Of a DNA stretch of 64,000 nucleotides, positions 3,697 to 27,287 are shown one piece after another. Origin of the DNA: Candidatus Pacearchaeota archaeon (GTDB taxonomy: Archaea; Nanobdellota; Nanobdellia; UBA10117; JABICX01); NCBI GenBank assembly GCA_017608025.1, contig JAFCGM010000001.1, forward strand, positions 78,885-142,884, read 5' to 3'. The notes under the pieces are model-generated. The model worked only from the letters and a program-made list of their open reading frames with translations. It did no database searches and was not told the DNA's origin. Every line of letters begins with the position of its first letter. Positions within the stretch are counted from its first letter, which is position 1. The translations under genes and the position numbers were made by a program.

Positions 3697-4740
3697 TTAA
3701 ATTTTGTAGCGCAGAATTGCAGCAATTCCTCCAAGCCCTTCAAGCTTTTTGCCAGCGTCTTTTTTCGGGTTGAGGATAAGAACTTCTGCTCCAGATTCTT
3801 CAGCGCGAGATATTATTTTAGATATTTTCTTGAACTGCGATTTAATAAGATGCTCTGAGATAAGAAGAGTTTTCACTGCTCCTGAGCTTACTACTTTTTC
3901 AACTTCATCAAATCCATATTCAGCTTTTCCAGAATTTTTTGATATTTCAGAAAGAAGGTTTTCAATTTCCCGTTCTTCTTTTATGTAATGAGACTCTTTT
4001 ACAATCTTGCTGAAACCCTGCTTTAAAATTAATTCGCGAAATGCTTTTTCAGAGCCAGTTGAAGTTGTTTCTGTTATGACTTTTTTGTTAAGGTCTGGCT
4101 TTATTTCAAGAATTTGCTTTTTCAGCTCGTCTTTCCAGAAAAGCGGGCTTGCAAGGAGAATTATTTCAATCTTTTTTTCAGAAATTTCCTTTATTATTTC
4201 TTTGGCAAGGTTTTTTAATGGGTCTTTCTTTTTTTCAGAATACCTTTTTTTGCTTAGTTCGAGTTTGATGTTTGAAACAGGCTTTATTCCTGAAGAAGTT
4301 ACTTTTCCAAGATTTGCTTCAGAGTCATCTAATGAACAGACAATTGCGCGCGGAATGTTTGTGTTTCTTTCTGCATCTTTTAAAATTTCTTTTTGGTATT
4401 TTTTCCACTGCTTTTGAATCCATAGGTCTGAGCCTTGTGAAACCTCAATTGAGTGGAATTCATCTGATGAAACTTGCTCAAGAGTTGTTTCAAGAATTTT
4501 TCCATGAAGCCGGAGATTGAAATTGTCAAAAGATATTTTTTCTATTTTTATTTTTGCAGTTATTGTTTTTCTTGTTGATTTCTGCCTTTCATTTTCAGAG
4601 CTGAGCTTTTGCTTGTAGGAGCTTTTTCCCTTTACAATATCTCCTGGCTCGAGGACTTTTTGTAAGTACCACAAGTCTTCTGGAGAGTCGATTTTGACAT
4701 GAGCAACGCCTGTTTTTTTGTTTAAGGAAAGCAGTTTCAT
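3697..4740 (-). CDS. pelA: Pelota/Dom34 mRNA surveillance factor
   Basis: N-terminus DLWYLQKVLEPGDIV matches the Pelota consensus DLWHLYNLI.GD. The 347 aa length and the eRF1-like C-terminal domain are consistent. Confidence 0.7.
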   Translation of the reverse strand: MKLLSLNKKTGVAHVKIDSPEDLWYLQKVLEPGDIVKGKSSYKQKLSSENERQKSTRKTITAKIKIEKISFDNFNLRLHGKILETTLEQVSSDEFHSIEVSQGSDLWIQKQWKKYQKEILKDAERNTNIPRAIVCSLDDSEANLGKVTSSGIKPVSNIKLELSKKRYSEKKKDPLKNLAKEIIKEISEKKIEIILLASPLFWKDELKKQILEIKPDLNKKVITETTSTGSEKAFRELILKQGFSKIVKESHYIKEEREIENLLSEISKNSGKAEYGFDEVEKVVSSGAVKTLLISEHLIKSQFKKISKIISRAEESGAEVLILNPKKDAGKKLEGLGGIAAILRYKI

Positions 4741-4930: not shown

Positions 4931-4938
4931 TATATAAA
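4931..4938 (+). promoter_or_regulatory. TATA box tatataaa, 23 bp upstream of the ATG at 4961 (leaderless transcript likely)
   Basis: Archaeal TATA-like octamer at the expected distance for a leaderless mRNA. Confidence 0.3.
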
Positions 4939-4960: not shown

Positions 4961-6157
4961 ATGCTATTGAATAAGAAAGCTAATGCTAATGCTATTATTC
5001 TTTTTACAATTCTCTTAATTGTCACTGTGATTATAATAACAGTTTTTTCGCCGACAGATTATCGAAGGGCTTTGCTAAATGAGTCTTATTCAAATGCAAA
5101 TGATTACGGCAATGTTGTTCTTTTTGAGGCAGCAGATGTTGTTATAAATGAGACAGACCTTGAAGAGGGAACTGAAAGCATTTACCTTCACGATGCAGAG
5201 CTTGACTATGCTGCGCATCGAAAAGAGGAGCAGATTTCAGGAAGCTTTGAAATAAGCAATTCCTTTATTGAAGACAATTCTGCCAAGTTTTACTTGAATG
5301 TGGATGACTCTTTCCAAGGAATGTACTTTACTTTTTATGTTATTTCAAAAGAGGGTAATGGCAAAATAAACATACTCTTAAATGGCCAAAGCATATACAC
5401 AGCATCTCCTGATGAAGGTGAGAAAGTTAATGTTTATGTTCCTAAAAACGCCCTTAAGAAAGGAGACAATGAAATAGTTATTCGAGCAACATATCCTCTG
5501 AACATTTTCAAAGAAAATTCCTTTTCAATTGTTGATTTAAGAGCTTTTTTAACAGAGAGAAATGAAGAGCAGAGAGTTGAGCACACGTTTATTGTTGAAG
5601 ATGCTTCAGAAATAAGAGAGCCTGCCCTTTATGCTTATGTTACAAAAATGCCTTATTCAATTGCAAACAGCAAAATAAAAATTACAATAAATGAGGTAGA
5701 GGTTTTTGAAGGAGTTCCAGCAACAATAAATGATTATGAAACTCCTCAGGTTTTTTACCTTCCTTTGGAGGAAATTTATTTGAAAGACGGAGTTAATGAA
5801 ATCATTTGGGAAGTTGACCTTGGAGGAGCATATTCTGTTGATTTTGTGAAAATTGAATATGAAACTTTGGAGGAGCCAGATGAAGAGGAAGAAAGTGTTT
5901 TTCGGTTTAATATTGATTCTGATGCTTACAAGAAAGTTCGGAGCAAAAGATATTCCTGTGTTTTGACTTTTGAGTCAGATGACATAAACAAGATGTTTGA
6001 ATACAATATAAATGGAAACAAATCTTCTGCTGCAGTTTCATCTTCTGAAATTTCCTTTGATGTTTGTGATTCTCTTAGAAAAGGTCTTAATTCATTGAAA
6101 GTGTCTTCAGGAGAAGACCTGCTTTTCAGCAGAATCAAATTAGAAATCAAAAGGTAA
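4961..6157 (+). CDS. N-terminally membrane-anchored extracellular protein with three G-NEI beta-rich repeats, function unknown
   Basis: Single N-terminal TM segment (ILFTILLIVTVIIITVF). Repeats around KKGDNEIVIRATYP, KDGVNEIIWEVDLG and RKGLNSLKVSS. First gene of a 4-gene same-strand cluster with a 6-bp spacer to the next gene. Confidence 0.4.
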   Translation: MLLNKKANANAIILFTILLIVTVIIITVFSPTDYRRALLNESYSNANDYGNVVLFEAADVVINETDLEEGTESIYLHDAELDYAAHRKEEQISGSFEISNSFIEDNSAKFYLNVDDSFQGMYFTFYVISKEGNGKINILLNGQSIYTASPDEGEKVNVYVPKNALKKGDNEIVIRATYPLNIFKENSFSIVDLRAFLTERNEEQRVEHTFIVEDASEIREPALYAYVTKMPYSIANSKIKITINEVEVFEGVPATINDYETPQVFYLPLEEIYLKDGVNEIIWEVDLGGAYSVDFVKIEYETLEEPDEEEESVFRFNIDSDAYKKVRSKRYSCVLTFESDDINKMFEYNINGNKSSAAVSSSEISFDVCDSLRKGLNSLKVSSGEDLLFSRIKLEIKR

Positions 6158-6162
6158 TTTTT

Positions 6163-8841
6163 ATGGCGAACTGGAGTAATGCTCTTAAAAAACTTGGTAA
6201 TAAAGCAAAGAAAATTAAGCCTAGCAAAATTAAGGAAGCTTCTGGCAAGGGCGTCAAAGCAGTTAAGGGCAAAGCTAAAAATATTGACTGGAAAAAGCTC
6301 CAAAGACAAGCAAAGGAACAAGCAAAGCAAATTGCAAAGGAACAAGGAAAGGAATTTGTAAAAAGTCAGGTTAAGGGTAAAACAGGCATTGATGTAGATG
6401 CTGTTCAGCAAGGAAACATTAGGTCATCTGCAGAAGGTGTTTTTCAGAAATTCAAAGAAAAAAGAGCCAGTTCTGAAGGAGATGATATTCATCAAATTCC
6501 TGGTTATAATCCATCCGCTCAGGAAGTTGTTGCCCCATCTGCGCAGCAACAAGGGATTCAGAGTGGAATTCCACAGCAGTTTTTGGGAAAATTTGGAAGC
6601 AGGAATAAAGGAAAGGCACCATGGATTGTTGTTTTAATTGCCCTTGCGATTGTTCTTGGCGGATTTTTGCTGATGTTTTCCCCTTTTGATTCAGAGTATT
6701 CAGTTCTGGTTATTCTTGTTGGAGGCGGGGCTCTTTTCGGAGGGCTTCTTTTTATTATTGCAACAAGAACACAGGTTTTTCAGGGAATTGGCATAGTCTT
6801 GAAAATAATTTTCATTGAAAAGCCAAAGCAGTTTTTCTTGTGGGTTAAGAAGAAGTTTGCTGTATGGCGGGAGAGGATTAGAAGAGAAAAAGAGCTTAGA
6901 AAAAAGTCCTGGGATGTTGTTCAGGCGCACAAAGATGAAATATCTCCTCTTTTAATGGAGAGTAAGGGATTTAAGGAGCAAGTAAAGGCAGTAAAGATTT
7001 TTGCTGGCATTGTAATTATTCCAATATTATCGTGCGTATATGCTCTGTACTTTTTTTTCTGGAAAGGCAGGAAAATCAAAAAGCTAATTAAAAAAGAGGA
7101 AAAAGAGCATGAAAAAGAGAGAAAGGCTGAAAAAAAAGCAGAGAAAGACAAACCAGAAGGGTTTTACTCTGGCGGAGCTGGAAGTGGCGGAGGTGCTACT
7201 GGAAAAATTCTTTTAGTTGTTGGAATAATTATTCTTATTCTCGGCGGAACTGCTGGATTCTGGTTTGGATATTACAAGAACACTCCACAAGGGCAGAAGA
7301 TTTCTGAGCAATATCTTTCATTTGGAACAAGTACTTATTCTGCTGAAAGAGGGAGCAGAGGTTTCTTCAATTCAGTTTTTCAGACAATAAAATTTGCATT
7401 TTCAGGAGATGTTGAGGAAATAATGAAGTCAAGAGAAGCAGAGTCAGAATATGCGCAGTTTGAGGAAATAAAAACCACAATGGAGGAAGTAAAGCCCTAT
7501 AAAAATCCAGTTTACAAAGATAGTGATATTTCAATTTACGGATACCTTTCTGTTGAGGACGGACCAGAAGAGGGAACTGCTTTTGAGTTTGAAGTTAGGC
7601 AGCTTATGAATGTTGTAATAAGAAATTACAGGAAAAATCAAGTCTGCGATTCAACTTTGCTGAGCTCTGCAGTTTCTAGCATAGACAGTGTTCTTGATGA
7701 AAATAATCACTGCAACAGCAATCCAGAATGTAAACATTTCTGCACCGACACTTCAGACTGGAAATGCTATATTCCTGGAGGAGATCCTGCAAAGGATTCC
7801 AATGGAAATATTATTCCAAATACATTTTTGTTTAAGAACAGATATAACCAACGAGTAATTTGCAGCCACAGCGGTATACAGGATCCAAAAAAGGATTTGC
7901 AGCTTTCAAAAATAACTCTTATTTGGAAATACTGGACACAGGCAATGCTTGAAAAGAGAGTTTATGTTTTTGATTCTGATTACGCAGCACTTCACAAAAA
8001 TCCACTAAAGTCAGCAAACATCTCAAGGTCTTCTTATGAATCTTTGAGCAAGGCAGAGAAGAACATAGGTTTCGGGGCTGGAATAAGCAAGGACAGGGAT
8101 TACATGGTTACAACTCCGCTAGATGCACTGAAATACGGAATGGATTATATTGAGATTTACAACATTATCTTCACTTTGAGGAACAAGGGTCTTGGTGACA
8201 TTGTGGATTTAAAAGACATTGAGGTATGGATTCCTGATTCTGTAAATGTTGTTGAGGAAGAAGGAGATTTTGAAGTCTGCGGAGAAAAGACTGACAGAGG
8301 AATAGTATTTAAGAAATACTGCCTAAAAAAGGATGTAATAGATTCTTTTGACTCAATTGGGCCAGCGCTGTTCAGGAACTTTTATCTGCCAGTGTATGTT
8401 GAAAGCAGCTTTATAGTTGGAAATGAGTGGTTTGATAGTTTTACTTTGACATCAAAAGTTTATTATAAATACAGAGATGAGGCAATGGTTGATGATGTCA
8501 TAAAAGTTGATGTTGGAAGTTCAGTTAAATTACATAAAACTCAGAACAACACTTCCAGCGCTTCAGAAGTTGTTAGCAAAGAAGAAACTGTTTCTGAATT
8601 AGAGACAATTATTTTTGAGGGTAGGGATGAAAATCATGTCTTTGAAATCACAGATGTAAATCCTGATAAAATTATTTACAATTTTGCTGTATCGCAAGAT
8701 AATGTTATTACAAGCCAGCTAATTATGCTTGGCGAAACAAAAGAATACAACTACAAAAGCGGGCAAGGGGAAATAAAAATATTGCTGAAGCACATTGAGG
8801 GCAATGATGCGCTAGTAAACATAACTGCTACTTATTTTTAA
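6163..8841 (+). CDS. Large polytopic membrane protein with a Lys-rich histone-H1-like cytoplasmic N-tail, 4 TM segments, a Gly-rich linker and a ~530-aa Cys-rich extracellular domain; function unknown
   Basis: N-terminus KKLGNKAKKIKPSKIKEASGKGVKAVKGKAKN; TM helices at ~150-200 and ~280-300; GGAGSGGGATG linker; ectodomain with several Cys (CDSTLL, HCNSNPECKHFCTDTSDWKC). Confidence 0.4.
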   Translation: MANWSNALKKLGNKAKKIKPSKIKEASGKGVKAVKGKAKNIDWKKLQRQAKEQAKQIAKEQGKEFVKSQVKGKTGIDVDAVQQGNIRSSAEGVFQKFKEKRASSEGDDIHQIPGYNPSAQEVVAPSAQQQGIQSGIPQQFLGKFGSRNKGKAPWIVVLIALAIVLGGFLLMFSPFDSEYSVLVILVGGGALFGGLLFIIATRTQVFQGIGIVLKIIFIEKPKQFFLWVKKKFAVWRERIRREKELRKKSWDVVQAHKDEISPLLMESKGFKEQVKAVKIFAGIVIIPILSCVYALYFFFWKGRKIKKLIKKEEKEHEKERKAEKKAEKDKPEGFYSGGAGSGGGATGKILLVVGIIILILGGTAGFWFGYYKNTPQGQKISEQYLSFGTSTYSAERGSRGFFNSVFQTIKFAFSGDVEEIMKSREAESEYAQFEEIKTTMEEVKPYKNPVYKDSDISIYGYLSVEDGPEEGTAFEFEVRQLMNVVIRNYRKNQVCDSTLLSSAVSSIDSVLDENNHCNSNPECKHFCTDTSDWKCYIPGGDPAKDSNGNIIPNTFLFKNRYNQRVICSHSGIQDPKKDLQLSKITLIWKYWTQAMLEKRVYVFDSDYAALHKNPLKSANISRSSYESLSKAEKNIGFGAGISKDRDYMVTTPLDALKYGMDYIEIYNIIFTLRNKGLGDIVDLKDIEVWIPDSVNVVEEEGDFEVCGEKTDRGIVFKKYCLKKDVIDSFDSIGPALFRNFYLPVYVESSFIVGNEWFDSFTLTSKVYYKYRDEAMVDDVIKVDVGSSVKLHKTQNNTSSASEVVSKEETVSELETIIFEGRDENHVFEITDVNPDKIIYNFAVSQDNVITSQLIMLGETKEYNYKSGQGEIKILLKHIEGNDALVNITATYF

Positions 8842-8905
8842 TTTAGAACAACCTTTAAAAATAAGCACTGACTATTAATAAGCATAATTATCAGGGTGAA
8901 AGAAC

Positions 8906-10144
8906 TTGGTTGACTGGAAAAAAATAATAATATCTTTCTTTGCTATTATGTTTATTGTTTTGTTTAGCGGATGCCTTGGAAGCGATGATACTGACTTTGA
9001 TACTAATTTAAATGCTCCAGACTCAGTTTCTATTGAGTTTATACCTGGAAATCCTCCTGACCAGATTTATGAAGGAACTCCATTTTCCCTTGCACTGAAG
9101 ATTGAGAATGAGGGAAATGATAAGATAAATTCAGGAGACATGTGGGTTCATGTGATTGGAGTAGACCCTAATTCAATTAAAGAGTTTTCAAATTATGACT
9201 GTAATTCATTCAGCATAAATGCTGGCTCTGGTTTGATTCCTTTTAAAGACTACTCTTTTTCCTTTTCAAGATATAATGAAGGAACTGGGGAATTGCTAGT
9301 TAATTACATTAAGGAAAGCGATACAAATACGAAAACAATTTCTCTTGGTGAGGAATTTATGCTAGAAGAAGATTTTTACTTGACTGTTAACAATGTTGCT
9401 CCTGACGGAACTATTGAGGGAACTGCTTGTAACGGACCATCTTCTGAAGCAACAGATGTAACTGCAGTAAATTTCTTTTCAAAGGAAATAACCACTAGTT
9501 TAATTCCTTCAGTTGAAGTTGACGGGAAGAAAATTCCAGGAGGAATAACTCAGGTTTCATGGGATGCTTTGAAATACAAGGAGAATATTTCATCTGACCA
9601 GCAGCTTGATTTCCTTGCAAAAGCATGCTATATTTACAGCAGCAAGGCAACTGGAAGAGCGTGCTTTAACATAAACCCTTATTCACAAGTTACTGGAACA
9701 CAGACATGCACAGTAAATGGCGAGAAGGAAGTTGGCAACGAAATTGGACCAATTAAAATTACAAAGATGAATGAGTACTACACTGGAAAAAATGAAGGAA
9801 AACAGAGATATACTTTCACTTTGACAATTGAAAATATAGATGACGGAGATGTTTTCTTAAGAAGCGCAGACCTTGAGAATTGTATGGACTTAAAACAGAA
9901 TGAGCTGAACAGGGTTGAAGTCACAAAATTCAAAATAGGTACAATTGATTATATTGCAAACGGACAGTGCGAAAACAATGAAGTTTATTTGACAAACGGA
10001 GTTGGTGAGTGGAACTGCATGATTTCAAAAGACCCAATTACAGGATATGACTTAGTTAACATTGAGATTGAATATGGGTACACGCAGCAAACAAGAAAAA
10101 CACTTACTTTGAAGAACTCGTTTGAAGATGCAGAGCTCTACTAG
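8906..10144 (+). CDS. Secreted lipobox protein (signal peptide ending LFSGC), paralog of the next gene
   Basis: N-terminus IISFFAIMFIVLFSGCLGSDD is a signal plus lipobox-like motif. Internal motif LALKIENEGNDKINSGD is shared with the 10214 paralog (WLEIENTGEKKIDAGE). Confidence 0.4.
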   Translation: MVDWKKIIISFFAIMFIVLFSGCLGSDDTDFDTNLNAPDSVSIEFIPGNPPDQIYEGTPFSLALKIENEGNDKINSGDMWVHVIGVDPNSIKEFSNYDCNSFSINAGSGLIPFKDYSFSFSRYNEGTGELLVNYIKESDTNTKTISLGEEFMLEEDFYLTVNNVAPDGTIEGTACNGPSSEATDVTAVNFFSKEITTSLIPSVEVDGKKIPGGITQVSWDALKYKENISSDQQLDFLAKACYIYSSKATGRACFNINPYSQVTGTQTCTVNGEKEVGNEIGPIKITKMNEYYTGKNEGKQRYTFTLTIENIDDGDVFLRSADLENCMDLKQNELNRVEVTKFKIGTIDYIANGQCENNEVYLTNGVGEWNCMISKDPITGYDLVNIEIEYGYTQQTRKTLTLKNSFEDAELY

Positions 10145-10213
10145 TTTCCCTTAATGGGAAGCTTTTCTTTTATTTTTAACAAAATTTAAATATATACAGA
10201 AGCAGATATTATC

Positions 10214-11467
10214 ATGAAGATTAAGCACTTGCTGATTTCATTTTTTATTGTTTTGATAGTTCTTTTCAGCGGATGTATTGGCAATCCCTTGAAAGAAGAA
10301 AGCACATTTCTTTCAACTTCGCAATCGCTTGATGCCAGGTTTCTTCAAAACGCTCCGCCAAAAAATATCTTTATTGGTGACAGATTTAATATTTGGCTTG
10401 AAATTGAGAATACAGGAGAAAAGAAAATTGATGCTGGCGAGGTAAGGGTTGATTTGAGCAATGCGAATTTGTTCAGGCATTATTATTCATACAATCTTGA
10501 AGGTCATGATGAGTATGGGAGAAAAAACAGGTATGCGGACTTTTTATGGTGGATGAAGGAGCTAACAAAATACACAAGCCACAAAGAGCCTTTTAACTAC
10601 AACGACAAGTTTGAGTGGGCTTCAGCTCTTGGATGCAAAGACAAAAGAGGTATTTTATGCTCAGAATCAACAGATAATACTTACAAGAATGAATGCATTA
10701 GAAACTGCGTATATGAATTTCAAGAGGATTTGAAAAAAGAGTTTTCACATGTTCCTGACTATAACGAATTCAATTCAACAAATAAGCAGTATATAGAGTT
10801 CAATCCAACAAGATACAATATAAATTATCTGCGACCAGCAAGGAAAGACCCGGAATCTGGAAATCGAATTCCTGGCGCAAATGAATTGATTATGTATGAT
10901 GACCTGACTTATGTTGCTGGAGAATCAATTACAGAGGAAAGGCCAATTGACATTTCTGCAAAGATTTGCTATCCTTACCAAACAGAAGGGATTTCAACAA
11001 TATGTGTTACAAAAAGCTCAATTGAATCAGAAATTTGCGACCCGATTGCTGAAAGAAAAGCAGAAACTTCATCTGGACCAATTCATCTTAAAGCAGTTGA
11101 GCAAAAGACAAATGGATATTCATCAGAGGGAGAAGCCCAAGTTGTGACTAGAATTGATTTTGTATTTGAAAAAGCCGACTATAAGAAAGACATATTTTCA
11201 AACACCCACTGCCTGGAAAGAGTTTCTCCGTACAATAAAGATTCATTTAATGTAACTTTTCTTAAAATCGGCTCTAAGGAGTATGACCCAGAACAGGTTT
11301 GCGGGACTTCTAAAATTGAACTTAGAGCGGATGGAACTGGAAGAATAAGCTGCAAGTTTCCAATTAATGGAGTGCATAATGATTATCTTGAGAGAGTTGT
11401 AATAAGAACAAATTATGTTGTGATTATGGAAACAAGCACAGACACGCATGTGATGCCTACATTGTAA
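10214..11467 (+). CDS. Secreted lipobox protein, paralog of 8906..10144
   Basis: N-terminus LLISFFIVLIVLFSGCIGN; shared IEN.G motif; multiple Cys. Confidence 0.4.
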   Translation: MKIKHLLISFFIVLIVLFSGCIGNPLKEESTFLSTSQSLDARFLQNAPPKNIFIGDRFNIWLEIENTGEKKIDAGEVRVDLSNANLFRHYYSYNLEGHDEYGRKNRYADFLWWMKELTKYTSHKEPFNYNDKFEWASALGCKDKRGILCSESTDNTYKNECIRNCVYEFQEDLKKEFSHVPDYNEFNSTNKQYIEFNPTRYNINYLRPARKDPESGNRIPGANELIMYDDLTYVAGESITEERPIDISAKICYPYQTEGISTICVTKSSIESEICDPIAERKAETSSGPIHLKAVEQKTNGYSSEGEAQVVTRIDFVFEKADYKKDIFSNTHCLERVSPYNKDSFNVTFLKIGSKEYDPEQVCGTSKIELRADGTGRISCKFPINGVHNDYLERVVIRTNYVVIMETSTDTHVMPTL

Positions 11468-11513
11468 GCAATTCCAATAATCTTTTTATATGTTATTTTT
11501 TATTTTTAGGCAG

Positions 11514-11580: not shown

Positions 11581-12840
11581 ATGAGAATCTACGCTGACCT
11601 TCACATTCATTCCCGGTTTTCAAGGGCAACTTCAAAGCAGCTTAATCTTGAAAATTTGGAGAAATATGGTCGAATTAAAGGATTAAACTTAATTGGAACT
11701 GGAGATTTTACTCATCCAGAGTGGATTAAAGAAATTAAGGAAACTCTTCGAGAAGATGGCACAGGAATTTTAAAATCAAAGTCAGGATTTAATTTTGTTT
11801 TGTCAAGTGAAGTTTCTTTGATGTATACGCAGGGAGGAAAAGCAAGAAAAGTTCATCTTGTTCTTTTGGCACCTTCTTTGGAAATTGTTGATAAGATAAC
11901 AGCTTATTTTAAAAGTTTGGGAAGAATTGATTATGACGGTAGACCTATTTTCGGAAAGTCAATTATTGAGGTTACAAGAAAATTAAAGGAAATTTCTGAC
12001 AAGATTGAGATTATTCCTGCTCACATCTGGACTCCTTGGTTTGGGGTTCTAGGAAGCAAGTCTGGTTTTGATTCAATTAAGGAGGCATTTGGAGATGAGG
12101 AAAAGCATATTTATGCAATTGAAATGGGTCTTAGTTCAAATCCAAAGATGAATTGGATGCTTTCTGAGTTAGACAAATACACTTTGATTGCAAATTCAGA
12201 TTCCCATAGCTTCTGGCCTTGGAGGTTAGGAAGGGAATGCAACATTTTTGATTTTGAGGAAATTACATATGATAATTTGATAAAAGCAATAAGAACGAGA
12301 GAAGGATATGTTGGGACAATTGGTGTTGACCCTAACTATGGAAAATACCACTATGACGGTCATAGAAATTGCGGATTTTCCTGCACTCCAGAGAAAGCAA
12401 AAGAGTTGAATTATCTTTGCCCTGTTTGTAAAAGACCTCTTACACTAGGAGTCATGCATCGCGTGAAAAAACTTGCTGATAGAAATTTCGGATTTGTTTT
12501 AAGAGAAAAAGAAGAGCATCACAATTTTCTTCCTCTTTCAGAAGTTGTCTGCAAGGTCTTTGGAAATGGAGTTGCAACAAGAAAAACAATGGAAGCTTAC
12601 AATAAGTTGGTTGAAGGAACAAATGAGTATTTTGTTTTGCTTGAAATGGAAAAAGCGGATATTGAAAAGAGAAGTAGTAAGGACATTGCTGAGATGGTAA
12701 TAAAAAACAGAAAAGAGGATTTTAAAATAAAACCTGGTTATGATGGTGAATATGGTGTTCTTGAATATGAAAATGCTGAAAAAGAAAAATCAAGAAATAT
12801 TTTTGAAGTGAAAAAGCAGCCTTCTCTGCTTGACTTTTGA
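11581..12840 (+). CDS. Endonuclease Q-like PHP-domain nuclease (EndoQ family)
   Basis: N-terminus ADLHIHSRFSRATSKQL...GLNLIGTGDFTHPEW matches the EndoQ/PHP start. C-terminal Zn-ribbon CPVCKRPLTLGVMHR. Length 419 aa. Confidence 0.55.
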   Translation: MRIYADLHIHSRFSRATSKQLNLENLEKYGRIKGLNLIGTGDFTHPEWIKEIKETLREDGTGILKSKSGFNFVLSSEVSLMYTQGGKARKVHLVLLAPSLEIVDKITAYFKSLGRIDYDGRPIFGKSIIEVTRKLKEISDKIEIIPAHIWTPWFGVLGSKSGFDSIKEAFGDEEKHIYAIEMGLSSNPKMNWMLSELDKYTLIANSDSHSFWPWRLGRECNIFDFEEITYDNLIKAIRTREGYVGTIGVDPNYGKYHYDGHRNCGFSCTPEKAKELNYLCPVCKRPLTLGVMHRVKKLADRNFGFVLREKEEHHNFLPLSEVVCKVFGNGVATRKTMEAYNKLVEGTNEYFVLLEMEKADIEKRSSKDIAEMVIKNRKEDFKIKPGYDGEYGVLEYENAEKEKSRNIFEVKKQPSLLDF

Positions 12841-18201: not shown

Positions 18202-18277
18202 GGCTGGGATAGGGTAGCCTGGTTTATCCTCTGTGGCTGTGGCCCGCAGGACCCGAGTTCGAATCTCGGTCCCGGCC
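18202..18277 (+). tRNA. tRNA-His (anticodon GTG) with genome-encoded G-1 opposite C73
   Basis: Manual fold. Acceptor GCTGGGA/TCCCGGC; anticodon stem TGTGG/CCGCA; loop CTGTGGC; T arm CCGAG-TTCGAAT-CTCGG; extra 5' G pairing with discriminator C. One T-T mismatch in the D stem. No CCA encoded. Lies 66 bp upstream of hisS. Confidence 0.7.
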
Positions 18278-18343
18278 CGAACTTTTCTTTCAAAAAAAAG
18301 CTTACAAAACAATTCTTACTACTGCTCGAAAAGAGGTGCTGTG

Positions 18344-22541: not shown

Positions 22542-22679
22542 AAAGGCAGAGCGAGCCCGGAGGGATTCGAACCCACGATCTACAGCTTCCTTCAACCTGT
22601 CGCAGAAGTTTTTTTCCGCGAACGCTTTTCTTTTTAGAGAAAAGGGCTCTTAGAAGGCTGTCGCCCTATCCAGACTAGG
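22542..22679 (-). tRNA. tRNA-Arg (anticodon TCT) interrupted by a ~63-nt intron at the canonical 37/38 position (intron approx 22578..22640)
   Basis: Manual fold of the reverse complement. Acceptor GGGCCCG/CGGGCTC; D arm GCCT-AGTCTGGATA-GGGC; anticodon stem ACAGC ... GCTGT with loop CTTCTA|intron|A; T arm GTGGG-TTCGAAT-CCCTC (one T-T mismatch). Exon CTTC pairs with the intron 3' end GAAG, giving a BHB-like central helix. Confidence 0.7.
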
Positions 22680-22839
22680 CTACGGGCCCAGAAATAAGAA
22701 CTTTGACTAATTTATAAAAGTTTTCAATATTTTTTCCAACAAAAATTTAGGAATAAAGCATATTTAATTGTTTAACTCTAGTAGCAAAATATTTAAAAAC
22801 ATCATTTTTGAGTAACAACATAACACACTTGGAGAATTA

Positions 22840-25137
22840 ATGATGAAAAAAATACTTTTATTAACTATACTAGCAGTAACTTTACTTGTCAGTTTTTCAG
22901 CTGTGAATGCAGCAGTTGTTATAAATGAATTTGAGCCGAATCCAGATGATGGATGTCTTGATTGTGCTGAGTGGGTTGAGATAAGAAGAACAACTTCAAG
23001 TGACCCAACATCTTTTGTTTTGGATGCTGGCGGACAAAATACAAGCTTTTCTTTTAATTCTGAAGGCTATTTAGTTGTGACGGGCAACTTGTCTGTTTTT
23101 TCAACAATGTATCCAAATGCTTCTGGAACAATTATTGAAGGGAATATAAGCTTAAATAATGACAAAGATACAATAATAATATACAATTCTTCAAATAATG
23201 CTGTTTTGGATAATGTAACATATGGTGATTTTTCATCAAAAGAAGGACAATCTTTAGGATTATATTATGATAATCTGAATGACCATTACTATTCATATGC
23301 AAACCCAACACCAACACAACAAAACCCTGATGTATTACCTCCAGGTAAACCAACTAACATCAATTCAGAAGTAGGTTTGTCCTCTATTAAATGGACCTGG
23401 ACAAACCCTTCTGATGAAACAGATGGCTCTGGATTCAAGCATGTTGAAGTCTACTTGAATGGCGTATTTCAGGAAAACTCCACTTTAGGAGAATTTACTG
23501 CAACAGGACTTACAAGAGATACAATTTACACTATAAAATTAATTGCTGTTGATAATGCAGGGAACAAGGCTGGTGAAGTTACAAGCCAGACAAAAACTCT
23601 TGCACAAGGAGTTTACATTAAATCAGTTGATTTGAGCAGAGAAGTTGATTCAGAAAGGCAGACTGTTGTTGAGACTTCAATAATAAACAATACTGCGCTT
23701 GAAGATTATTCTGCGCTTTCTTATGAGATTTCAAACTTGAAATGGGAAGGGAAAGATTCTTATTCATTTGAAAGTCCTGAGTTCATATCAATAAGGCAAT
23801 CACCAATAAGCCTTGCAAGTGGCTCTTCAGCAACTCTTGTTTTTGATGTTACAATTCCTTCAAGAAGTGAGGTTGAAGGATATGGTTATTATAAGGCAAC
23901 ATATAGAGTTCTTGAAGGCACAACAGAACTTGCCACAGAGTCATTCAACTTGAGGCTTTTGCCAGAAGATTATGATAATGACTTAGAGATTTCAGACATT
24001 GACTTAGATGATGATGAGCTTTTCCCTGGAGATGAGACAACTCTTGAAATTGAAGTTGATAATAACTTTGATGATGACATTGATGATGTTGAAGTTATTG
24101 TGCTAAATGAGAATCTTGATATTGATGAATCTTTTGACATTGGAAGCATTGATGAGGGAGATGATGCAACAGTATCAGCTGATTTACAAATTCCTTATGA
24201 TTCTGAAGAAGGAGATTATACTCTTTTAATTTTGGTTACTGGGGAAGACCCAGATGGAAATGATATCTCAACTTATGATTTAATTGATTTGAGTGTTGAG
24301 AAAGATAGCCATGATTTGGTCATTTCTGAAATAGATGTTTCAGATGAGGAAATAAGCTGCGGGTCAATACTTTATGTTGATGTGGAAGTTACAAACATTG
24401 GAACAAGTGATGAAGATGACCTTGTTATAAGGCTTAAAAACAGTGAGCTTAACTATGAGGAAATTGAAACTCTTGATGAGCTTGAGGAAAATGAGGACGA
24501 GACATTCACTTTTGAAGTAAGGCTTCCTGTCGACATTGACTCTGGAGCTTATATTTTTAATGCTGAGATTGAATATGATGACGATGAGGATCAGGACAAT
24601 GACAATCATTTGAGAAGTTCTGTAGGAGTGACAATTAACTGCGGGGAAAGTAACGCAAGAGGAGAAACTGGCGAAGCAACGCTTTCCGGAGACATGGAAA
24701 AGACAATAACTCAAGGAACAAATGCAGTGTTTTCATTTGAGCTTGAGAATATTGGTGATAAAGATGCAGAGTATGAGTTGAAAGTTTCTGGATATTCTGG
24801 ATGGGCTTCTGAAGTTGTAACTGAACCAGAAGGAGTTTTCATAATCTCGCCTGGTGAGACAGTTCCAGTTAAAATATATGTTTATCCAGAATCAGACGCA
24901 GCTGGAAGCGCAAGCTTGTTTTTGAAAGTTTACTCAAATGATGAAGTTGTTATTTCAGAAACAATTTCTCTGAACATTGTTTCTTTAAGAGAACGAGCAG
25001 AAACTGGTGGAGAAATTGACTATTCAACAATTTTCCTTGTTGGCGCAATTGTTGTCGGAATTGCTGCCCTAGCAGGAATTTATATATTTGCAAACAAAAA
25101 TTCATTGCTTAATGGCAGGAAAAAGAGGGAAAAATAG
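22840..25137 (+). CDS. Secreted cell-surface protein with a fibronectin type III domain, acidic Asp/Glu-rich repeats, CARDB-like domains and a C-terminal TM anchor
   Basis: Signal peptide; FN3 signature SSIKWTWTNPSDETDGSGFKHVEVYLNG...TIYTIKLIAVDNAGN; repeats ending V.V.N.G; C-terminal IFLVGAIVVGIAALAGIYIF followed by KKREK. Confidence 0.5.
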   Translation: MMKKILLLTILAVTLLVSFSAVNAAVVINEFEPNPDDGCLDCAEWVEIRRTTSSDPTSFVLDAGGQNTSFSFNSEGYLVVTGNLSVFSTMYPNASGTIIEGNISLNNDKDTIIIYNSSNNAVLDNVTYGDFSSKEGQSLGLYYDNLNDHYYSYANPTPTQQNPDVLPPGKPTNINSEVGLSSIKWTWTNPSDETDGSGFKHVEVYLNGVFQENSTLGEFTATGLTRDTIYTIKLIAVDNAGNKAGEVTSQTKTLAQGVYIKSVDLSREVDSERQTVVETSIINNTALEDYSALSYEISNLKWEGKDSYSFESPEFISIRQSPISLASGSSATLVFDVTIPSRSEVEGYGYYKATYRVLEGTTELATESFNLRLLPEDYDNDLEISDIDLDDDELFPGDETTLEIEVDNNFDDDIDDVEVIVLNENLDIDESFDIGSIDEGDDATVSADLQIPYDSEEGDYTLLILVTGEDPDGNDISTYDLIDLSVEKDSHDLVISEIDVSDEEISCGSILYVDVEVTNIGTSDEDDLVIRLKNSELNYEEIETLDELEENEDETFTFEVRLPVDIDSGAYIFNAEIEYDDDEDQDNDNHLRSSVGVTINCGESNARGETGEATLSGDMEKTITQGTNAVFSFELENIGDKDAEYELKVSGYSGWASEVVTEPEGVFIISPGETVPVKIYVYPESDAAGSASLFLKVYSNDEVVISETISLNIVSLRERAETGGEIDYSTIFLVGAIVVGIAALAGIYIFANKNSLLNGRKKREK

Positions 25138-25303
25138 TGAAAAAATTATGTTCACTTGAGCCCCTTTTAGAAAAAGCGGCTGCGGAAAACACAGCAGGCA
25201 AGCAAAAAATGATGCCTGCAAGCCCCGTTTGGAAAAAGCGGCTAAGACTGCGTCTAAGGCGGCTACGCCTTCTGCGGAAAAGTGAAAAAATAATGTTCAC
25301 TTG
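25136..25303. repeat. Two copies of the cccttttNgaaaaagcggct module (25159..25280) flanked by the 23-bp direct repeat agtgaaaaaat(t/a)atgttcacttg (25136..25158 and 25281..25303)
   Basis: Direct reading. The first repeat copy starts at the stop codon of the upstream gene. Confidence 0.55.
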
Positions 25304-25377
25304 GCAAAGCAAAGCCTTATAAAGGCAATTCTTTGCTGAGTATAATATTCCAAATCTGATTTGGAGGTGCAAATTAA

Positions 25378-26982
25378 ATGAAAAACCTATGGAAAAAAGG
25401 AATACTTGGAATTTTAGGAATTATTGTATGTTTAGCCATGACAACAGCTGTTTCAGCTTATAGCATGGTGAATGTGCAAGATACAAATATAGAGTTGACA
25501 ACAGATGACGCAGTTATTCCTATACCAATAACTTACACAAATGATGGCAGTGATGTTGATATAACTGTTATAATGGACGCAAGTCCAGTTAATGACTACA
25601 CTGAACAGCAGTTTTCTATTGGAGGAAGTGTTACACCTGTTTCAGATGTAATTAACTTTCCTGTATCTGGAGAGCTTCCAATGGGAGAAATTACTGTTTC
25701 TGTGAATATTTCAGGACCAGATGCAGTTTATATTGGTAGTTCAACAGACAATAAGAACGGAGAGTTCTTTGATATAACTCTTACTGTAACAGAAGCAATT
25801 CCAGACAAAGACACAGAAATTGCTCCTGGTTTGATAACAGAAATTGACATTGAGGAAGATGAAGTTGCTCCTGGAGTAGATGTTGAGTTTGAAGTAGTTC
25901 TTGAAGCTGCTGAAGACGAGCGTTTTGAGGATGTAACAATAACTGCTTGGCTAGAGGATGTTTACGGTGAAAGACTTACAGACAAATACGAGACTGGAGA
26001 ATTCAATCTTGGAAGAACAGATGACGACGATGAAGAGTCTAGATTCATGACAATTGAAGTTCCAGAAGATGCTGATGAGGAAGAATATTTCCTTGTTGTA
26101 AGAGTTGAAGGAACAGAGATTGAAAATGGAGTCGGAATTGAAGGACTTTTGGACATGTCAAGAAATGACATAATCGATGTTGTGAGAAACGAGCACTCAT
26201 TGGAAATTCAGTCAGTTGAAACAAGAGGAACAGCAGCAGCTGGCTCAACACTTGACTTCGTAGTTACTGTTTTGAACAACGGAAACAATGATGAAGACGA
26301 TGTTGTAATTCGAGTTGCAGTTCCAGAACTGGGAATTTCACAAGCTTCAATGCCAATGACAATTGAAGAAAGTGAGGAAATTACAAATTACTTCACAATT
26401 TCAATTCCACAGAACGCTGAAGCAAATGAGTATTCAGTTCTTGTAAGTGCTTTCAACTCAAAGTATACTGATGTCTCTCAGTTTAGTCTGGATGTTTCAG
26501 GAACAGAAGCTAAAGAGGATTCACAAATAGTTGTAAACACTGGCGATTCAATAAAGTCAGTTGGTGAATCTGGAGCAGTTTTTACTGTATCCTTAACAAA
26601 CACTGGTTCAAATGCAAGAACTCTTTCATTAGAAGCTAGCGGAGTCAGAAACTGGGGAGAAATTAGCATCAACCCAGCAACTGTTGTTGTACCAGCAGGT
26701 TCAACAAAAATTGTTTCTGTTTTTGTTACAGCTGACGAAGGAGTTAAAGGAGACCAGCAATTTAGTCTTTTTGTAAGAGAAGACTCAAAAATTGTTGACA
26801 GTATTTCCTTTACTGCAGAAATTGACTCAGATAATGTGGACACTGTTTCTTTGACAACAGCACTTAAGTGGGGAATTGGAATTTTGATTCTGGTTCTTGT
26901 TGTAGCTTTTGTTGTTTGGTCATGGAGACGTGAAGTTTCTGAGACAAGCGGAAAAAAGAAGTCTGGTAGAAAATACTACTAG
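25378..26982 (+). CDS. Secreted acidic cell-surface protein with CARDB-like domains and a C-terminal TM anchor
   Basis: Signal peptide; repeated motifs V.VLNNGN.DEDDVVIRV and SLTNTGSNARTLSLEASG; C-terminal GIGILILVLVVAFVVWSW then basic tail. Confidence 0.5.
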   Translation: MKNLWKKGILGILGIIVCLAMTTAVSAYSMVNVQDTNIELTTDDAVIPIPITYTNDGSDVDITVIMDASPVNDYTEQQFSIGGSVTPVSDVINFPVSGELPMGEITVSVNISGPDAVYIGSSTDNKNGEFFDITLTVTEAIPDKDTEIAPGLITEIDIEEDEVAPGVDVEFEVVLEAAEDERFEDVTITAWLEDVYGERLTDKYETGEFNLGRTDDDDEESRFMTIEVPEDADEEEYFLVVRVEGTEIENGVGIEGLLDMSRNDIIDVVRNEHSLEIQSVETRGTAAAGSTLDFVVTVLNNGNNDEDDVVIRVAVPELGISQASMPMTIEESEEITNYFTISIPQNAEANEYSVLVSAFNSKYTDVSQFSLDVSGTEAKEDSQIVVNTGDSIKSVGESGAVFTVSLTNTGSNARTLSLEASGVRNWGEISINPATVVVPAGSTKIVSVFVTADEGVKGDQQFSLFVREDSKIVDSISFTAEIDSDNVDTVSLTTALKWGIGILILVLVVAFVVWSWRREVSETSGKKKSGRKYY

Positions 26983-27063
26983 ATTTTTCTTTCTTTTTTT
27001 ATTTATCTTTTTCTTTTTTGAAAAAAGAAAACCAATGCTAAAAAAACTATTTAATTTTTAATA

Positions 27064-27239
27064 TCTTCTGCAAAAGAACTTTTTATTTCTTATATTATAA
27101 CTATTGAACCCTTTTAGAAAAAGCGTTCACGGAAAAACTTTTAGAAAAAGTTTCATCAAAAAAAGAATATAAGATAAGAGCTTTTCTTAGAAAGAACATC
27201 TTCTGCAAAAGAACTTTTTATTTCTTATATTATAACTAT
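27064..27239. repeat. Element (27105..27198, containing gaacccttttagaaaaagcgttcacggaaaaac) flanked by the 41-bp perfect direct repeat tcttctgcaaaagaactttttatttcttatattataactat (27064..27104 and 27199..27239)
   Basis: Direct reading. Confidence 0.6.
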
Positions 27240-27287
27240 CAGAGTGAATAAAAGTATATATACTAATTTTTAAAATTAATTACTATA

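What the first reader, a model, noticed from the sequence alone, without database searches (positions are those of the whole stretch)
4961..11467. Four-gene same-strand cluster of novel secreted or membrane proteins, including a polytopic protein with a histone-H1-like Lys-rich cytoplasmic tail and two paralogous lipobox proteins
The genes are tightly spaced (a 6-bp gap between the first two) and have no recognisable enzymatic motifs. Gene 2 (892 aa) combines a strongly basic N-tail, 4 TM helices and a Cys-rich ectodomain. Genes 3 and 4 are paralogs with LFSGC lipobox-like signal peptides. In a small-genome, possibly episymbiotic archaeon, this is a candidate cell-surface or host-interaction apparatus.
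Basis: partly seen in the sequence, partly recalled or inferred. Interest (0 to 1): 0.6.

Follow-up and report, generated by a model that had tools for sequence, protein, structure and literature searches.

The report
Conserved DPANN archaeal cell-surface protein operon
The four genes are real and belong to an unannotated module of membrane-anchored surface proteins that sits at the same place next to housekeeping genes in many Woesearchaeota/Nanoarchaeota genomes, most likely forming a multi-subunit envelope complex whose exact role is unknown.

Summary
Positions 4961-11467 carry four same-strand genes with no Pfam, NCBIfam or PDB sequence match. g1 has an N-terminal membrane anchor and three tandem beta-sandwich repeats. 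g2 has a basic tail, a hydrophobic region and an acidic ectodomain with conserved Cys. g3 and g4 are lipobox paralogs.

The cluster is not an oddity of this genome. Three protein families, which I call A (g1), B (g2) and C (g3/g4), occur in the fixed order pelota(-)|A|B|C|C(|C) in about 18 loci from Woesearchaeota/Nanoarchaeota MAGs. An exhaustive HMMER search found 1783 cluster representatives. In genomes with three C genes, C1, C2 and C3 are distinct positional orthogroups, and B usually overlaps C1 by 4 nt.

The AlphaFold model of g3 (pLDDT 89.5) is an all-beta protein with CARDB-like motifs and no Foldseek neighbour in PDB or BFVD. The g2 ectodomain core resembles tandem Ig-like "legs" of integrins and Gram-positive adhesins.

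- The g1-g2 gap is 5 nt.
- Four membrane spans cannot put the tail inside and the ectodomain outside; three crossings fit the charges.
- "Histone-H1-like" is composition only.

Best reading: a constitutive heteromeric surface complex. Its function (structural coat or host contact) is inferred, not shown.

The parts
4931..4938 (+). TATA-like element (TATATAAA) about 27 nt upstream of the g1 ATG. It is a candidate archaeal promoter in the 220-nt divergent region shared with pelota.
   Evidence: Read directly from the sequence. This is an inference and was not tested.
4961..6157 (+). g1, family A (398 aa). It has an N-terminal signal anchor (aa about 10-32) followed by three tandem beta-sandwich repeats. 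The ectodomain has pI 4.45.
   Evidence: The family alignment is A4. Repeats D1 and D2 match by hhalign with probability 96%. There are only weak Pfam hints: BetaGal_gal-bd, Filamin and CBM-like. Relatives are P0008, P0010, P0046 and P0154.
6163..6618 (+). g2 N-terminal tail (aa 1-152). It is Lys-rich, with net charge +19 and pI 10.2, and is predicted to be cytoplasmic.
   Evidence: The relatives P0012, P0095 and L018 also have charged tails. No linker-histone or other Pfam hit was found.
6619..7275 (+). g2 membrane region (aa 153-371). It holds four hydrophobic segments separated by two strongly basic loops (203-275 and 299-346). Three true crossings are most likely.
   Evidence: Hydropathy and charge analysis. 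AF2 confidence is below 50 here. The close relatives have 1 span (P0012) and 3 spans (P0095).
7276..8841 (+). g2 ectodomain (aa 372-892), pI 4.9. The core at aa about 430-784 consists of two beta-sandwich domains with family-invariant C567, G678, P691, C706 and Y768. A lineage-specific 5-Cys insert lies at 495-535. The C-terminal region 786-892 is modelled with low confidence.
   Evidence: Alignments A3 and A13. The B-family profile hits g2 collinearly. P0012 matches the whole ectodomain at 3.5e-51. The AF2 core has pLDDT 73-94. Foldseek hits integrin alpha legs at 4e-7, MSCRAMM adhesins and transglutaminase barrels.
8854..8899 (+). Promoter-like TTTAAAAATA (8854-8863) and Shine-Dalgarno-like GGTGA (8895-8899) upstream of g3. 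The element is conserved in the orthologous locus L001.
   Evidence: This is an inference from the sequence.
8906..10144 (+). g3, family C (412 aa, TTG start). The signal peptide and lipobox LFSG|C end at Cys23 (8972-8974). Two CARDB-like beta domains follow, with a lineage-specific insert of about 100 aa at aa about 95-200. Six conserved Cys.
   Evidence: The AF2 model m1f2172e0841c has pLDDT 89.5. A lipobox is present in 112 of 128 family members. The family consensus scores 21.8 bits against CARDB, whose cutoff is 22.7.
10143..10196 (+). Hairpin plus T-run after g3 (10143-10183), then the TATA-like TTTAAATATATA (10185-10196) about 24 nt before the g4 ATG. g4 may have its own promoter.
   Evidence: This is an inference.
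10214..11467 (+). g4, family C paralog (417 aa). The lipobox LFSG|C ends at Cys21 (10274-10276). It has the same two-domain core as g3 and a different Cys-containing insert at the same site.
   Evidence: The ortholog is P0005.
11482..11508 (+). T-rich stretch after g4, a probable archaeal oligo-T terminator and the end of the cluster. The next gene (11581-12840) is a PHP/TIGR00375 (MJ0043-like) protein that is syntenic in the closest relatives but cytoplasmic.
3697..4740 (-). pelota, transcribed divergently. It is the conserved left-hand neighbour of the module in every locus that has upstream sequence. It is a positional marker, not a functional part.

Best explanation
The four genes encode subunits of a conserved, constitutive, heteromeric cell-surface complex of Woesearchaeota/Nanoarchaeota (DPANN) archaea.

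The three subunit types are:
- Family A (g1) is held in the membrane by an uncleaved N-terminal helix and displays three tandem beta-sandwich repeats.
- Family B (g2) crosses the membrane an odd number of times, most likely three. Its variable, highly charged N-tail stays in the cytoplasm and it displays a two-domain Ig-like "leg" outside.
- Family C (g3 and g4) are Sec-exported lipobox proteins, presumably lipid-anchored through the conserved Cys. Each is built from two divergent CARDB-like beta domains stabilised by conserved disulfides.

The acidic ectodomains are proposed to assemble on the outer face of the membrane into a scaffold, either a surface coat or an adhesive layer. B would be the only component that connects this scaffold to the cytoplasm.

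Shown: the gene and domain anatomy, the predicted localisation signals, conservation and synteny, positional orthogroups, the B/C1 start-stop overlaps, and the fold class.

Inferred: physical assembly into one complex, lipidation, disulfides, and the structural or adhesive role.
For: 1. Fixed gene order. The order pelota(-)|A|B|C|C(|C) occurs in L003-L011 (GTDB MAGs), L015, L016/L017, L018+L001, L020 and L021.
2. Family size. The exhaustive HMMER search found 1783 representatives at E<=1e-3 and 825 at E<=1e-10.
3. Non-redundant subunits. C1, C2 and C3 are positional orthogroups: 119/132, 123/132 and 132/132 best hits go to the same position.
4. Coupling. B and C1 overlap by 4 nt or are at most 2 nt apart in 8 of 9 three-paralog loci. 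A-B gaps are typically 0-13 nt, and 5 nt in the window (coordinates).
5. Localisation. A lipobox is present in 112 of 128 C members, 108 of them with K/R in the first ten residues. Six Cys are invariant or nearly so in C. The ectodomains have pI 4.3-5.3, while the g2 tail and loops have pI about 10.
6. Lipobox proteins are prevalent in DPANN, and AliA-type lipidation enzymes occur there (PMC12462473).
7. Fold class. g3 is modelled at pLDDT 89.5 as an all-beta protein. The g2 ectodomain core (pLDDT 73-94) matches integrin alpha legs, MSCRAMM/AgI-II adhesins, alpha-2-macroglobulin MG domains and transglutaminase barrels.
8. No enzyme, transporter or ATPase signature appears in any family.
9. The module is single-copy in the window.
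Against: - No direct evidence of physical interaction exists. No multimer prediction was possible.
- In the window, g3 and g4 appear to have their own promoter-like elements, and a hairpin with a T-run separates them. They are therefore not strictly one operon here.
- Known S-layers are usually built from one or two proteins, not four or five.
- The window has other large Ig-domain surface proteins at 22840-29495 that could be the actual S-layer.
- g2 matches the bulk of family B only weakly (E 2e-6 against two sequences). The membrane domain of B is not conserved in g2's own clade, where it has 1 to 4 hydrophobic segments. Any function of that domain is therefore dispensable or variable.
- The AF2 model of g2 is low confidence outside the ectodomain core.
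Confidence: 0.5

Rival explanations
1. The cluster is a dedicated host-attachment or host-penetration apparatus of an episymbiont. The beta-sandwich ectodomains would act as adhesins for the host envelope. Lineage-specific inserts and add-on domains would provide host specificity.
For: - The organism is a DPANN archaeon.
- The g2 ectodomain resembles bacterial adhesins (BspA/AspA, FnBPA, ACE) and integrin legs.
- The sequences diverge fast, with 15-25% identity between genera.
- g3 and g4 carry different inserts of about 100 aa at the same exposed site, and these inserts are absent in L015.
- Some B members append a Peptidase_M23 or FN3 domain.
- g1 shows weak CBM/galactose-binding-like hints.
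Against: - The module is single-copy and sits at a fixed core-genome position between housekeeping genes over deep divergence. That is not the pattern of variable host-range loci.
- No host is known.
- No pore-forming or fusogen fold was found. Class II fusion and aerolysin-type hits all have probability below 0.1.
Confidence: 0.27
2. The cluster is a solute or nutrient capture system. The C lipoproteins would act as substrate-binding proteins that hand ligands to the polytopic B protein, which would act as a channel or transporter.
For: - The combination of lipoproteins and a polytopic membrane protein resembles binding-protein-dependent uptake systems.
- An Asp at the end of the first TM segment is conserved in most B members.
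- The consensus of the B membrane domain weakly resembles the Yip1 5-TM domain (E 2e-4, below the cutoff).
Against: - No ATPase or permease gene is nearby.
- C has no periplasmic-binding-protein fold. It is all-beta and CARDB-like.
- The only hit to a solved binding protein (6all) covers just the signal-peptide region.
- The B membrane domain shrinks to a single helix in P0012, a close relative of g2.
Confidence: 0.07
3. The cluster is a type IV pilus-like or prepilin-processing module. B would be a prepilin (A24) peptidase and A a pilin-like substrate with a class III signal peptide.
For: - NCBI nr names one B member (P0167) "prepilin peptidase".
- Most A-family N-termini read [KR][GA]Q followed by a hydrophobic stretch of about 22 residues.
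Against: - No Peptidase_A24 hit was found in Pfam or NCBIfam for any of 12 B members, even at E<=10.
- No conserved second Asp or GxGD motif is present.
- No pilus ATPase or platform genes are adjacent.
- g1 itself reads KKANANA, without the G/A-Q motif.
- B relatives with a single TM segment cannot be A24 peptidases.
Confidence: 0.03
4. The cluster is an integrated viral or mobile-element envelope-protein cassette.
For: - The products are secreted, Cys-containing beta-rich proteins of unknown function.
- Low-probability Foldseek hits to viral glycoproteins appear in the lists.
Against: - GC content is the same as in the flanks.
- The housekeeping neighbours are identical across many genomes.
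- No integrase, tRNA attachment site or repeats are present.
- No relative was found in the IMG/VR scan.
- No significant BFVD match was found.
Confidence: 0.01

Closest known systems
CARDB-domain (PF07705) and DUF11-type archaeal/bacterial surface proteins
   Same: Family C shows the CARDB-like strand motif (...PP.eV..g..F.v.v.v.N.G...). The family consensus hits CARDB at E 2e-4 in two stretches. Ten of 128 members have a CARDB hit, which in the one member inspected (P0007) appears from its sequence to lie in a C-terminal add-on. The best BFVD hit is a DUF11 protein. All are extracytoplasmic beta-sandwich proteins.
   Different: g3 and g4 give no CARDB hit at E<=1, and the consensus stays below the gathering score. 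The family has its own conserved 6-Cys pattern, a CY.Y.T motif, a lipobox anchor and a fixed two-domain architecture. The whole model has no PDB neighbour.
Lipobox lipoproteins of archaea (AliA/AliB-dependent, Haloferax volcanii; PMC12462473)
   Same: The signal has an N-terminal K/R n-region, a hydrophobic core and [LVI][ASTVI][GAS]C with Cys at about position 20. It is conserved across the family. The cited paper predicts such proteins to be abundant in DPANN.
   Different: Lipidation has not been shown for any DPANN protein. The mature domains are unrelated to the substrate-binding proteins that dominate haloarchaeal lipoproteins.
Archaeal S-layer systems with a membrane-anchored stalk plus canopy (for example Sulfolobales SlaA/SlaB, or the Methanosarcina DUF1608 S-layer)
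   Same: All are acidic, Ig-like or beta-sandwich, membrane-anchored envelope proteins encoded together. There is a weak Foldseek hit of g3 to the DUF1608 S-layer domain 3u2g (E 0.015, probability 0.85).
   Different: No sequence homology exists. This module has four or five different subunits rather than one or two, uses three kinds of anchor, and includes a polytopic subunit with a cytoplasmic tail. Lattice formation is unknown.
Integrin alpha-subunit legs (thigh/calf domains) and Gram-positive MSCRAMM/AgI-II adhesins
   Same: The g2 ectodomain core matches these tandem Ig-like domains by Foldseek (E 4e-7 to 1e-4). Like integrins, g2 pairs an extracellular leg with a charged cytoplasmic tail.
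   Different: Identity is 6-10% and TM-scores are about 0.1, so only the domain class matches. g2 has no beta-propeller or ligand-binding head, no sortase or isopeptide motifs, and a different membrane topology.

Membership tests
Lipobox (bacterial-type) lipoprotein signal, g3/g4 | A positively charged n-region, a hydrophobic h-region, and the lipobox [LVI][ASTVI][GAS]C within about 15-35 residues of the start | tested here: met
   g3 reads MVDWKK...IVLFSGC (Cys23) and g4 reads MKIKH...IVLFSGC (Cys21). With -3 = F the motif fits a relaxed pattern. In the family, 112 of 128 members match the relaxed pattern and 78 of 128 the strict one.
Lipobox (bacterial-type) lipoprotein signal, g3/g4 | Actual lipid modification of the Cys, and the presence of a lipidation enzyme (AliA/AliB in archaea) | not testable with these tools
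   Only the literature statement that arCOG02177 (AliA) occurs in DPANN with gaps is available. The enzyme was not looked for in this genome.
CARDB domain (PF07705), family C | A match to the Pfam model at or above its gathering score | tested here: inconclusive
   g3 and g4 have no hit at E<=1. The family consensus scores 21.8 bits against a cutoff of 22.7. Ten of 128 members hit. In P0007 the CARDB-like sequence appears to lie in a C-terminal add-on (sequence reading); the hit's position was not reported.
Known archaeal S-layer protein families | Sequence or fold homology to a characterised S-layer protein | tested here: not met
   No Pfam, NCBIfam or PDB sequence hit was found. The only fold hint is 3u2g at E 0.015 with TM 0.19.
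Known archaeal S-layer protein families | Forms a 2-D paracrystalline lattice and is among the most abundant cell proteins | not testable with these tools
   This needs cryo-ET or proteomics.
Type IV prepilin peptidase (A24), family B/g2 | A Peptidase_A24 profile match and two catalytic Asp, the second in a GxGD motif | tested here: not met
   No A24 hit was found for 12 B members in Pfam or NCBIfam. Only one Asp is conserved. g2's relative P0012 has a single TM segment.
Class III (type IV pilin-like) signal peptide, family A/g1 | A short basic leader ending in [KR][GA], followed directly by a hydrophobic helix (the FlaFind-type pattern, recalled from memory) | tested here: inconclusive
   Most A members read [KR][GA]Q, then 5-10 small residues, then the hydrophobic helix. 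g1 reads MLLNKKANANAIILF..., which does not fit at +1. No peptidase partner was identified.
Linker histone H1, g2 tail | Homology to the H1 globular (winged-helix) domain or to H1 C-terminal tail repeats | tested here: not met
   No Linker_histone or other DNA-binding Pfam hit was found. The tails of relatives are compositionally charged but not alignable.
Yip1 domain (PF04893), family B membrane region | A Pfam match at or above the gathering score | tested here: not met
   The consensus of typical B members scores 21.7 bits against a cutoff of 28.6. g2 itself has no hit.

The most novel reading that the evidence does not exclude
A, B and C are three previously undescribed protein families that together form a lineage-defining, five-component envelope machine of Woesearchaeales/Nanoarchaeota. 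It would be the main proteinaceous interface between these ultra-small archaea and their surroundings or hosts. The polytopic B subunit would couple the surface assembly to the cytoplasm through its charged tail. The C-family fold would have no solved structural relative.
Probability: 0.35. Interest if true: 0.7.

Novelty: new variant of a known kind. Interest (0 to 1): 0.52.

Why it matters
Woesearchaeota/Nanoarchaeota are abundant and uncultivated, and their cell envelopes and host-contact structures are essentially unknown. This work gives a core-genome module of three unannotated protein families that occurs in many lineages. It comes with clear localisation signals, a high-confidence structural model for one subunit, and defined orthogroups. 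It is therefore a concrete target for cryo-ET, surface proteomics, antibody or labelling reagents, and multimer modelling. It would also let Pfam or arCOG annotate well over a thousand "hypothetical proteins".

Tried and rejected
- Whole g2 as a query to the word-indexed protein search returned only itself. The low-complexity tail swamped the 8000-candidate limit.
- A concatenated A+B+C profile in the same tool was swamped in the same way, and that search was wasted. The same idea worked in the exhaustive HMMER search using window-only rows.
- Fused g1+g2 rows, meant to model two proteins in one AlphaFold job, failed. As a result g1 was not modelled.
- Profile-profile comparisons of A against C and C against B found no relationship.
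- PDB sequence searches with the three profiles found nothing meaningful.
- The prepilin-peptidase lead from an NCBI name was not reproduced.
- An SLT-like motif that I thought I saw in the C-terminus of L003 B has no Pfam support and is not claimed.
- The IMG/VR scan found no relatives. The larger alignment was too diverse for that tool.
- N-glycosylation sequons are not clearly enriched in the ectodomains.
- The sigma-70-type promoter scan is irrelevant for archaea and was at chance level.
Full report
**What is in the sequence**

The region 4961-11467 holds four + strand ORFs:
- g1, 4961-6157, 398 aa
- g2, 6163-8841, 892 aa
- g3, 8906-10144, 412 aa, TTG start
- g4, 10214-11467, 417 aa

GC content is the same as in the flanks, about 34-37%. 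The rest of the window is archaeal housekeeping:
- pelota, eIF2-alpha, GINS, primase, aminoacyl-tRNA synthetases
- exosome, proteasome, NrdD

None of the four proteins reaches a Pfam or NCBIfam threshold.

**g1.** A single N-terminal hydrophobic helix is followed by an acidic ectodomain, pI 4.45.

**g2.**
- The tail (aa 1-152) has 32 K/R against 13 D/E, pI 10.2.
- Four hydrophobic segments follow, separated by two strongly basic loops.
- The C-terminal part of 521 aa is acidic (pI 4.9). It holds 8 of the 9 Cys, five of them in 495-535.

**g3 and g4.** They are paralogs (BLASTP 1e-14 and 7e-11). Both begin with a basic n-region, a hydrophobic core and LFSGC.

The gap between g1 and g2 is 5 nt.

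**Topology of g2**

Four membrane spans would put the tail and the C-terminal domain on the same side. All three basic segments (1-152, 203-275, 299-346; pI 9.7-10.2) fit the cytoplasm. The Cys-containing acidic C-terminal domain fits the outside.

The simplest reading is three crossings, at about 155-173, 181-199 and 349-367. The hydrophobic helix at 279-297 would then not span the membrane.

Two close relatives found later support an N-in, C-out topology. P0012 has one predicted span and P0095 has three. The AlphaFold model is below pLDDT 50 in this region and does not decide the matter.

**The cluster is a conserved module**

A profile of g3+g4 found an orthologous pair (P0006 at 63% identity to g3, and P0005) on a syntenic contig, plus a distant relative.

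A scan of one genome per GTDB species with that profile returned 12 loci. Eight are titled Woesearchaeota, Nanoarchaeota or simply "archaeon". Four TPA assemblies are labelled Methanosarcinales, probably wrongly.

Searching their ORFs with the window proteins showed the same arrangement wherever the contig reached far enough:
- pelota on the opposite strand
- a g1-like protein of about 400 aa
- a polytopic protein of 540-1017 aa
- three consecutive lipobox proteins of about 300-330 aa
- usually RFC small subunit after them

I call these families A, B and C.

Further loci with the same order were reached through database relatives of g1 and g2:
- L015 (GCA_964435825.1) has the window's exact wider neighbourhood: GTPase-TGS, RusA, AI-2E transporter, HAD, pelota | A, B, C, C, PHP protein ... 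PAC2, eIF2-alpha.
- L016/L017.
- L018, which together with L001 is the closest relative; the assembly is broken between B and C.
- L020 and L021.

**Size and independence of the families**

I ran an exhaustive HMMER search of 1.84 billion cluster representatives. The profile was made of window-only concatenated rows plus P0007. It found 1783 proteins at E<=1e-3 and 825 at E<=1e-10. Most were C-family proteins of 300-340 aa. It also found:
- A-family members P0008, P0010, P0046 and P0154
- two g2-like B proteins, P0012 (3.5e-51 over the whole ectodomain) and P0095

Against a profile of the more typical B proteins g2 scores only weakly. The match is collinear, however, running from the last TM segment through the ectodomain (E 2e-6 for two targets). 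Cys567, Gly678, Pro691, Cys706 and Tyr768 are invariant in the joint alignment.

The three families are unrelated to one another by profile-profile comparison. Their profiles have no PDB sequence relatives. The window holds no further copies.

**Signs that the products work together**

In the genomes with three C genes, the copies are positional orthogroups. Best cross-genome hits go to the same position in 119/132 (C1), 123/132 (C2) and 132/132 (C3) comparisons. The copies are therefore old, non-redundant subunits rather than recent duplicates.

The window's own clade (window, L001, L015, L016) has only two copies, both closest to C3.

The stop of B and the start of C1 overlap by 4 nt, or are at most 2 nt apart, in 8 of 9 such loci. 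A-B gaps are typically 0-13 nt (coordinates). This pattern is typical of translational coupling.

The arrangement is looser in the window:
- g1 and g2 are 5 nt apart.
- g3 is preceded by a conserved TTTAAAAATA element and a GGTGA.
- g3 is followed by a hairpin and T-run.
- g4 has its own TATA-like element about 24 nt upstream.

The four genes probably form two or three transcription units. This is an inference from the sequence only.

**Domain and fold information**

*Family A.* The alignment shows an N-terminal anchor, then a conserved LPPEER..LL motif, then three repeats. Each repeat contains an L.I.LNG...F motif and a G.N.L.F...I..I.V strand pair. Repeats 1 and 2 match by hhalign at 96% probability. 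Only weak hints to galactose-binding/CBM-like and filamin domains exist. g1 could not be modelled (see "What was tried and failed").

*Family C.*
- A lipobox-type signal is present in 112 of 128 members. Nearly all of the rest have a Cys right after the hydrophobic core.
- Cys253, Cys268, Cys355 and Cys371 are invariant. Cys241 and Cys326 are nearly so.
- With a 128-sequence alignment AlphaFold2 gave a g3 model with mean pLDDT 89.5 and pTM 0.76. It is almost all-beta, with an N-terminal sandwich and a C-terminal domain built from very long strands.
- Residues of about 95-200 form an extra beta subdomain at the position of a lineage-specific insertion. g4 carries a different insertion with four extra Cys at that site. 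Typical family members lack the insertion.
- Foldseek found no PDB chain at E<1e-3, and TM-scores were below 0.2.
- Nothing convincing was found in BFVD. The best hit was a DUF11 protein at probability 0.2. Scattered class II fusion, aerolysin-type and bunyavirus glycoprotein hits had probability at or below 0.15.
- The family consensus hits CARDB in two stretches at 21.8 bits, just under the cutoff of 22.7. Ten of 128 members hit CARDB.

C is best described as a lipoprotein made of two divergent CARDB-like domains.

*Family B and g2.* The g2 model (13-sequence alignment) is poor overall, with mean pLDDT 58.8. The ectodomain core (g2 residues of about 430-784) reaches 73-94, apart from the 5-Cys insert.

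Its Foldseek neighbours are tandem Ig-like domain arrays:
- integrin alpha legs (4e-7)
- protein 4.2 and transglutaminase barrels
- the AglB/STT3 soluble domain
- alpha-2-macroglobulin MG domains
- cohesin dyads
- Gram-positive adhesins (BspA/AspA, FnBPA, ACE)

Identity is 6-10% and TM-scores are low, so only the fold class is informative.

The membrane region of typical B proteins has 4-7 predicted spans and a conserved Asp after the first one. Its consensus weakly resembles a Yip1 domain at 21.7 bits, below the cutoff. This region is not conserved in g2's clade.

Some B proteins carry extra C-terminal domains, namely Peptidase_M23 in P0159 and FN3 in P0161 and P0166.

**Leads checked and dropped**

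*Prepilin peptidase.* One B member is named "prepilin peptidase" in NCBI nr. Most A proteins start with [KR][GA]Q followed by a hydrophobic helix, which recalls class III signals. Against this:
- No A24 profile hit exists for any of 12 B proteins.
- There is no GxGD motif.
- g1 lacks the motif.
- No pilus genes are adjacent.

*Histone H1.* The g2 tail has no homology support for this label. Tails across family B range from 7 to 318 residues and are charged rather than specifically basic.

*Viral or mobile origin.* This is excluded by the synteny and by the empty IMG/VR scan.

**Interpretation**

The shown facts are:
- three unannotated families
- predicted extracytoplasmic, membrane-anchored products with three kinds of anchor
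- conserved Cys and acidic ectodomains
- deep conservation of gene order at a core-genome site
- non-redundant C subunits
- start-stop overlaps

The most economical inference is a constitutive heteromeric surface complex, in which B alone links to the cytoplasm.

Literature supports the prevalence of lipobox proteins, and the presence of AliA-type enzymes, in DPANN (PMC12462473).

The evidence does not settle what the complex is for. It could be a structural coat, a platform for adhesion to hosts, or both. I give the general complex model 0.5 and a dedicated host-attachment role 0.27.

Two points argue against a classical S-layer. The module has many subunits. The window also has other large Ig-domain surface proteins at 22840-29495.

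Two full-text searches found no description of this module. That does not prove it is undescribed.

**What was tried and failed**

- Two of the three word-indexed protein searches were lost to low-complexity or over-long queries.
- Fused-chain alignments failed, so g1 has no model.

**Verdict**

It is a widespread, conserved, unannotated envelope module. It consists of ordinary building blocks, namely beta-sandwich surface domains and lipobox or TM anchors. Its function is still unknown.

Noticed in passing
window 22840-29495 (+): Three adjacent large ORFs (765, 534 and 735 aa) carry NEW3/NPCBM_assoc, FixG_C and DUF4625 Ig-like domains. This is a second surface-protein cluster, with no A, B or C profile hit, and an alternative S-layer candidate.
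   Followed up: partly
window 36264-40913 (+): A 1549-aa protein has a subtilase (Peptidase_S8) domain at aa 448-799 and long unannotated flanks. It is probably a secreted or surface protease.
   Followed up: no
window 22552-22689 (-) and 18203-18278 (+): Rfam finds a tRNA spanning 138 nt, presumably intron-containing, which ARAGORN missed. ARAGORN's tRNA-His overlaps the longest-ORF start (GTG 18233) of the histidyl-tRNA synthetase gene, so that gene's real start must lie further downstream.
   Followed up: no
L007 4358-7114 (P0159); L008 and L011 B genes (P0161, P0166): Some family-B proteins carry lineage-specific C-terminal add-ons. P0159 has a Peptidase_M23 domain (32 bits, above the cutoff). 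P0161 and P0166 have FN3/purple-acid-phosphatase-N-like domains. This suggests the B ectodomain serves as a surface scaffold for extra modules.
   Followed up: partly
L012 309-2174 (P0167): NCBI nr names this family-B protein "prepilin peptidase". Neither Pfam nor NCBIfam reproduces the name, so it is probably an annotation artefact.
   Followed up: yes
L003-L011, N-termini of family A: Most A proteins begin with [KR][GA]Q, then small residues, a hydrophobic stretch of about 22 residues, and a conserved LPPEER..LL motif. This resembles a class III (prepilin-like) signal. The window's g1 lacks the G/A-Q motif.
   Followed up: partly
L001 1-230 and the end of L018: In the closest relative (GCA_964558255.1) the module is split across two contigs between B and C. 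The L001 end carries a direct repeat of about 115 bp, probably the cause of the assembly break.
   Followed up: no
window 8906-8950: The public gene call for g3 (P0004, 398 aa) starts at an internal Met and removes the n-region of the signal peptide. The TTG at 8906 restores it. The ortholog P0006 starts with an ATG one codon further upstream.
   Followed up: yes
window 11581-12840 (+): A PHP-domain protein (TIGR00375/MJ0043-like, with a Cys-rich zinc-ribbon-like insert) follows the module in the window, L001, L015 and L016. More distant genomes have RFC small subunit at that position.
   Followed up: no
L004 3621-5303 and L006 3152-4849: Two family-A proteins carry a Cys-rich insertion of about 170 aa (many CxxC-like pairs) between the second and third beta-sandwich repeats.
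   Followed up: no
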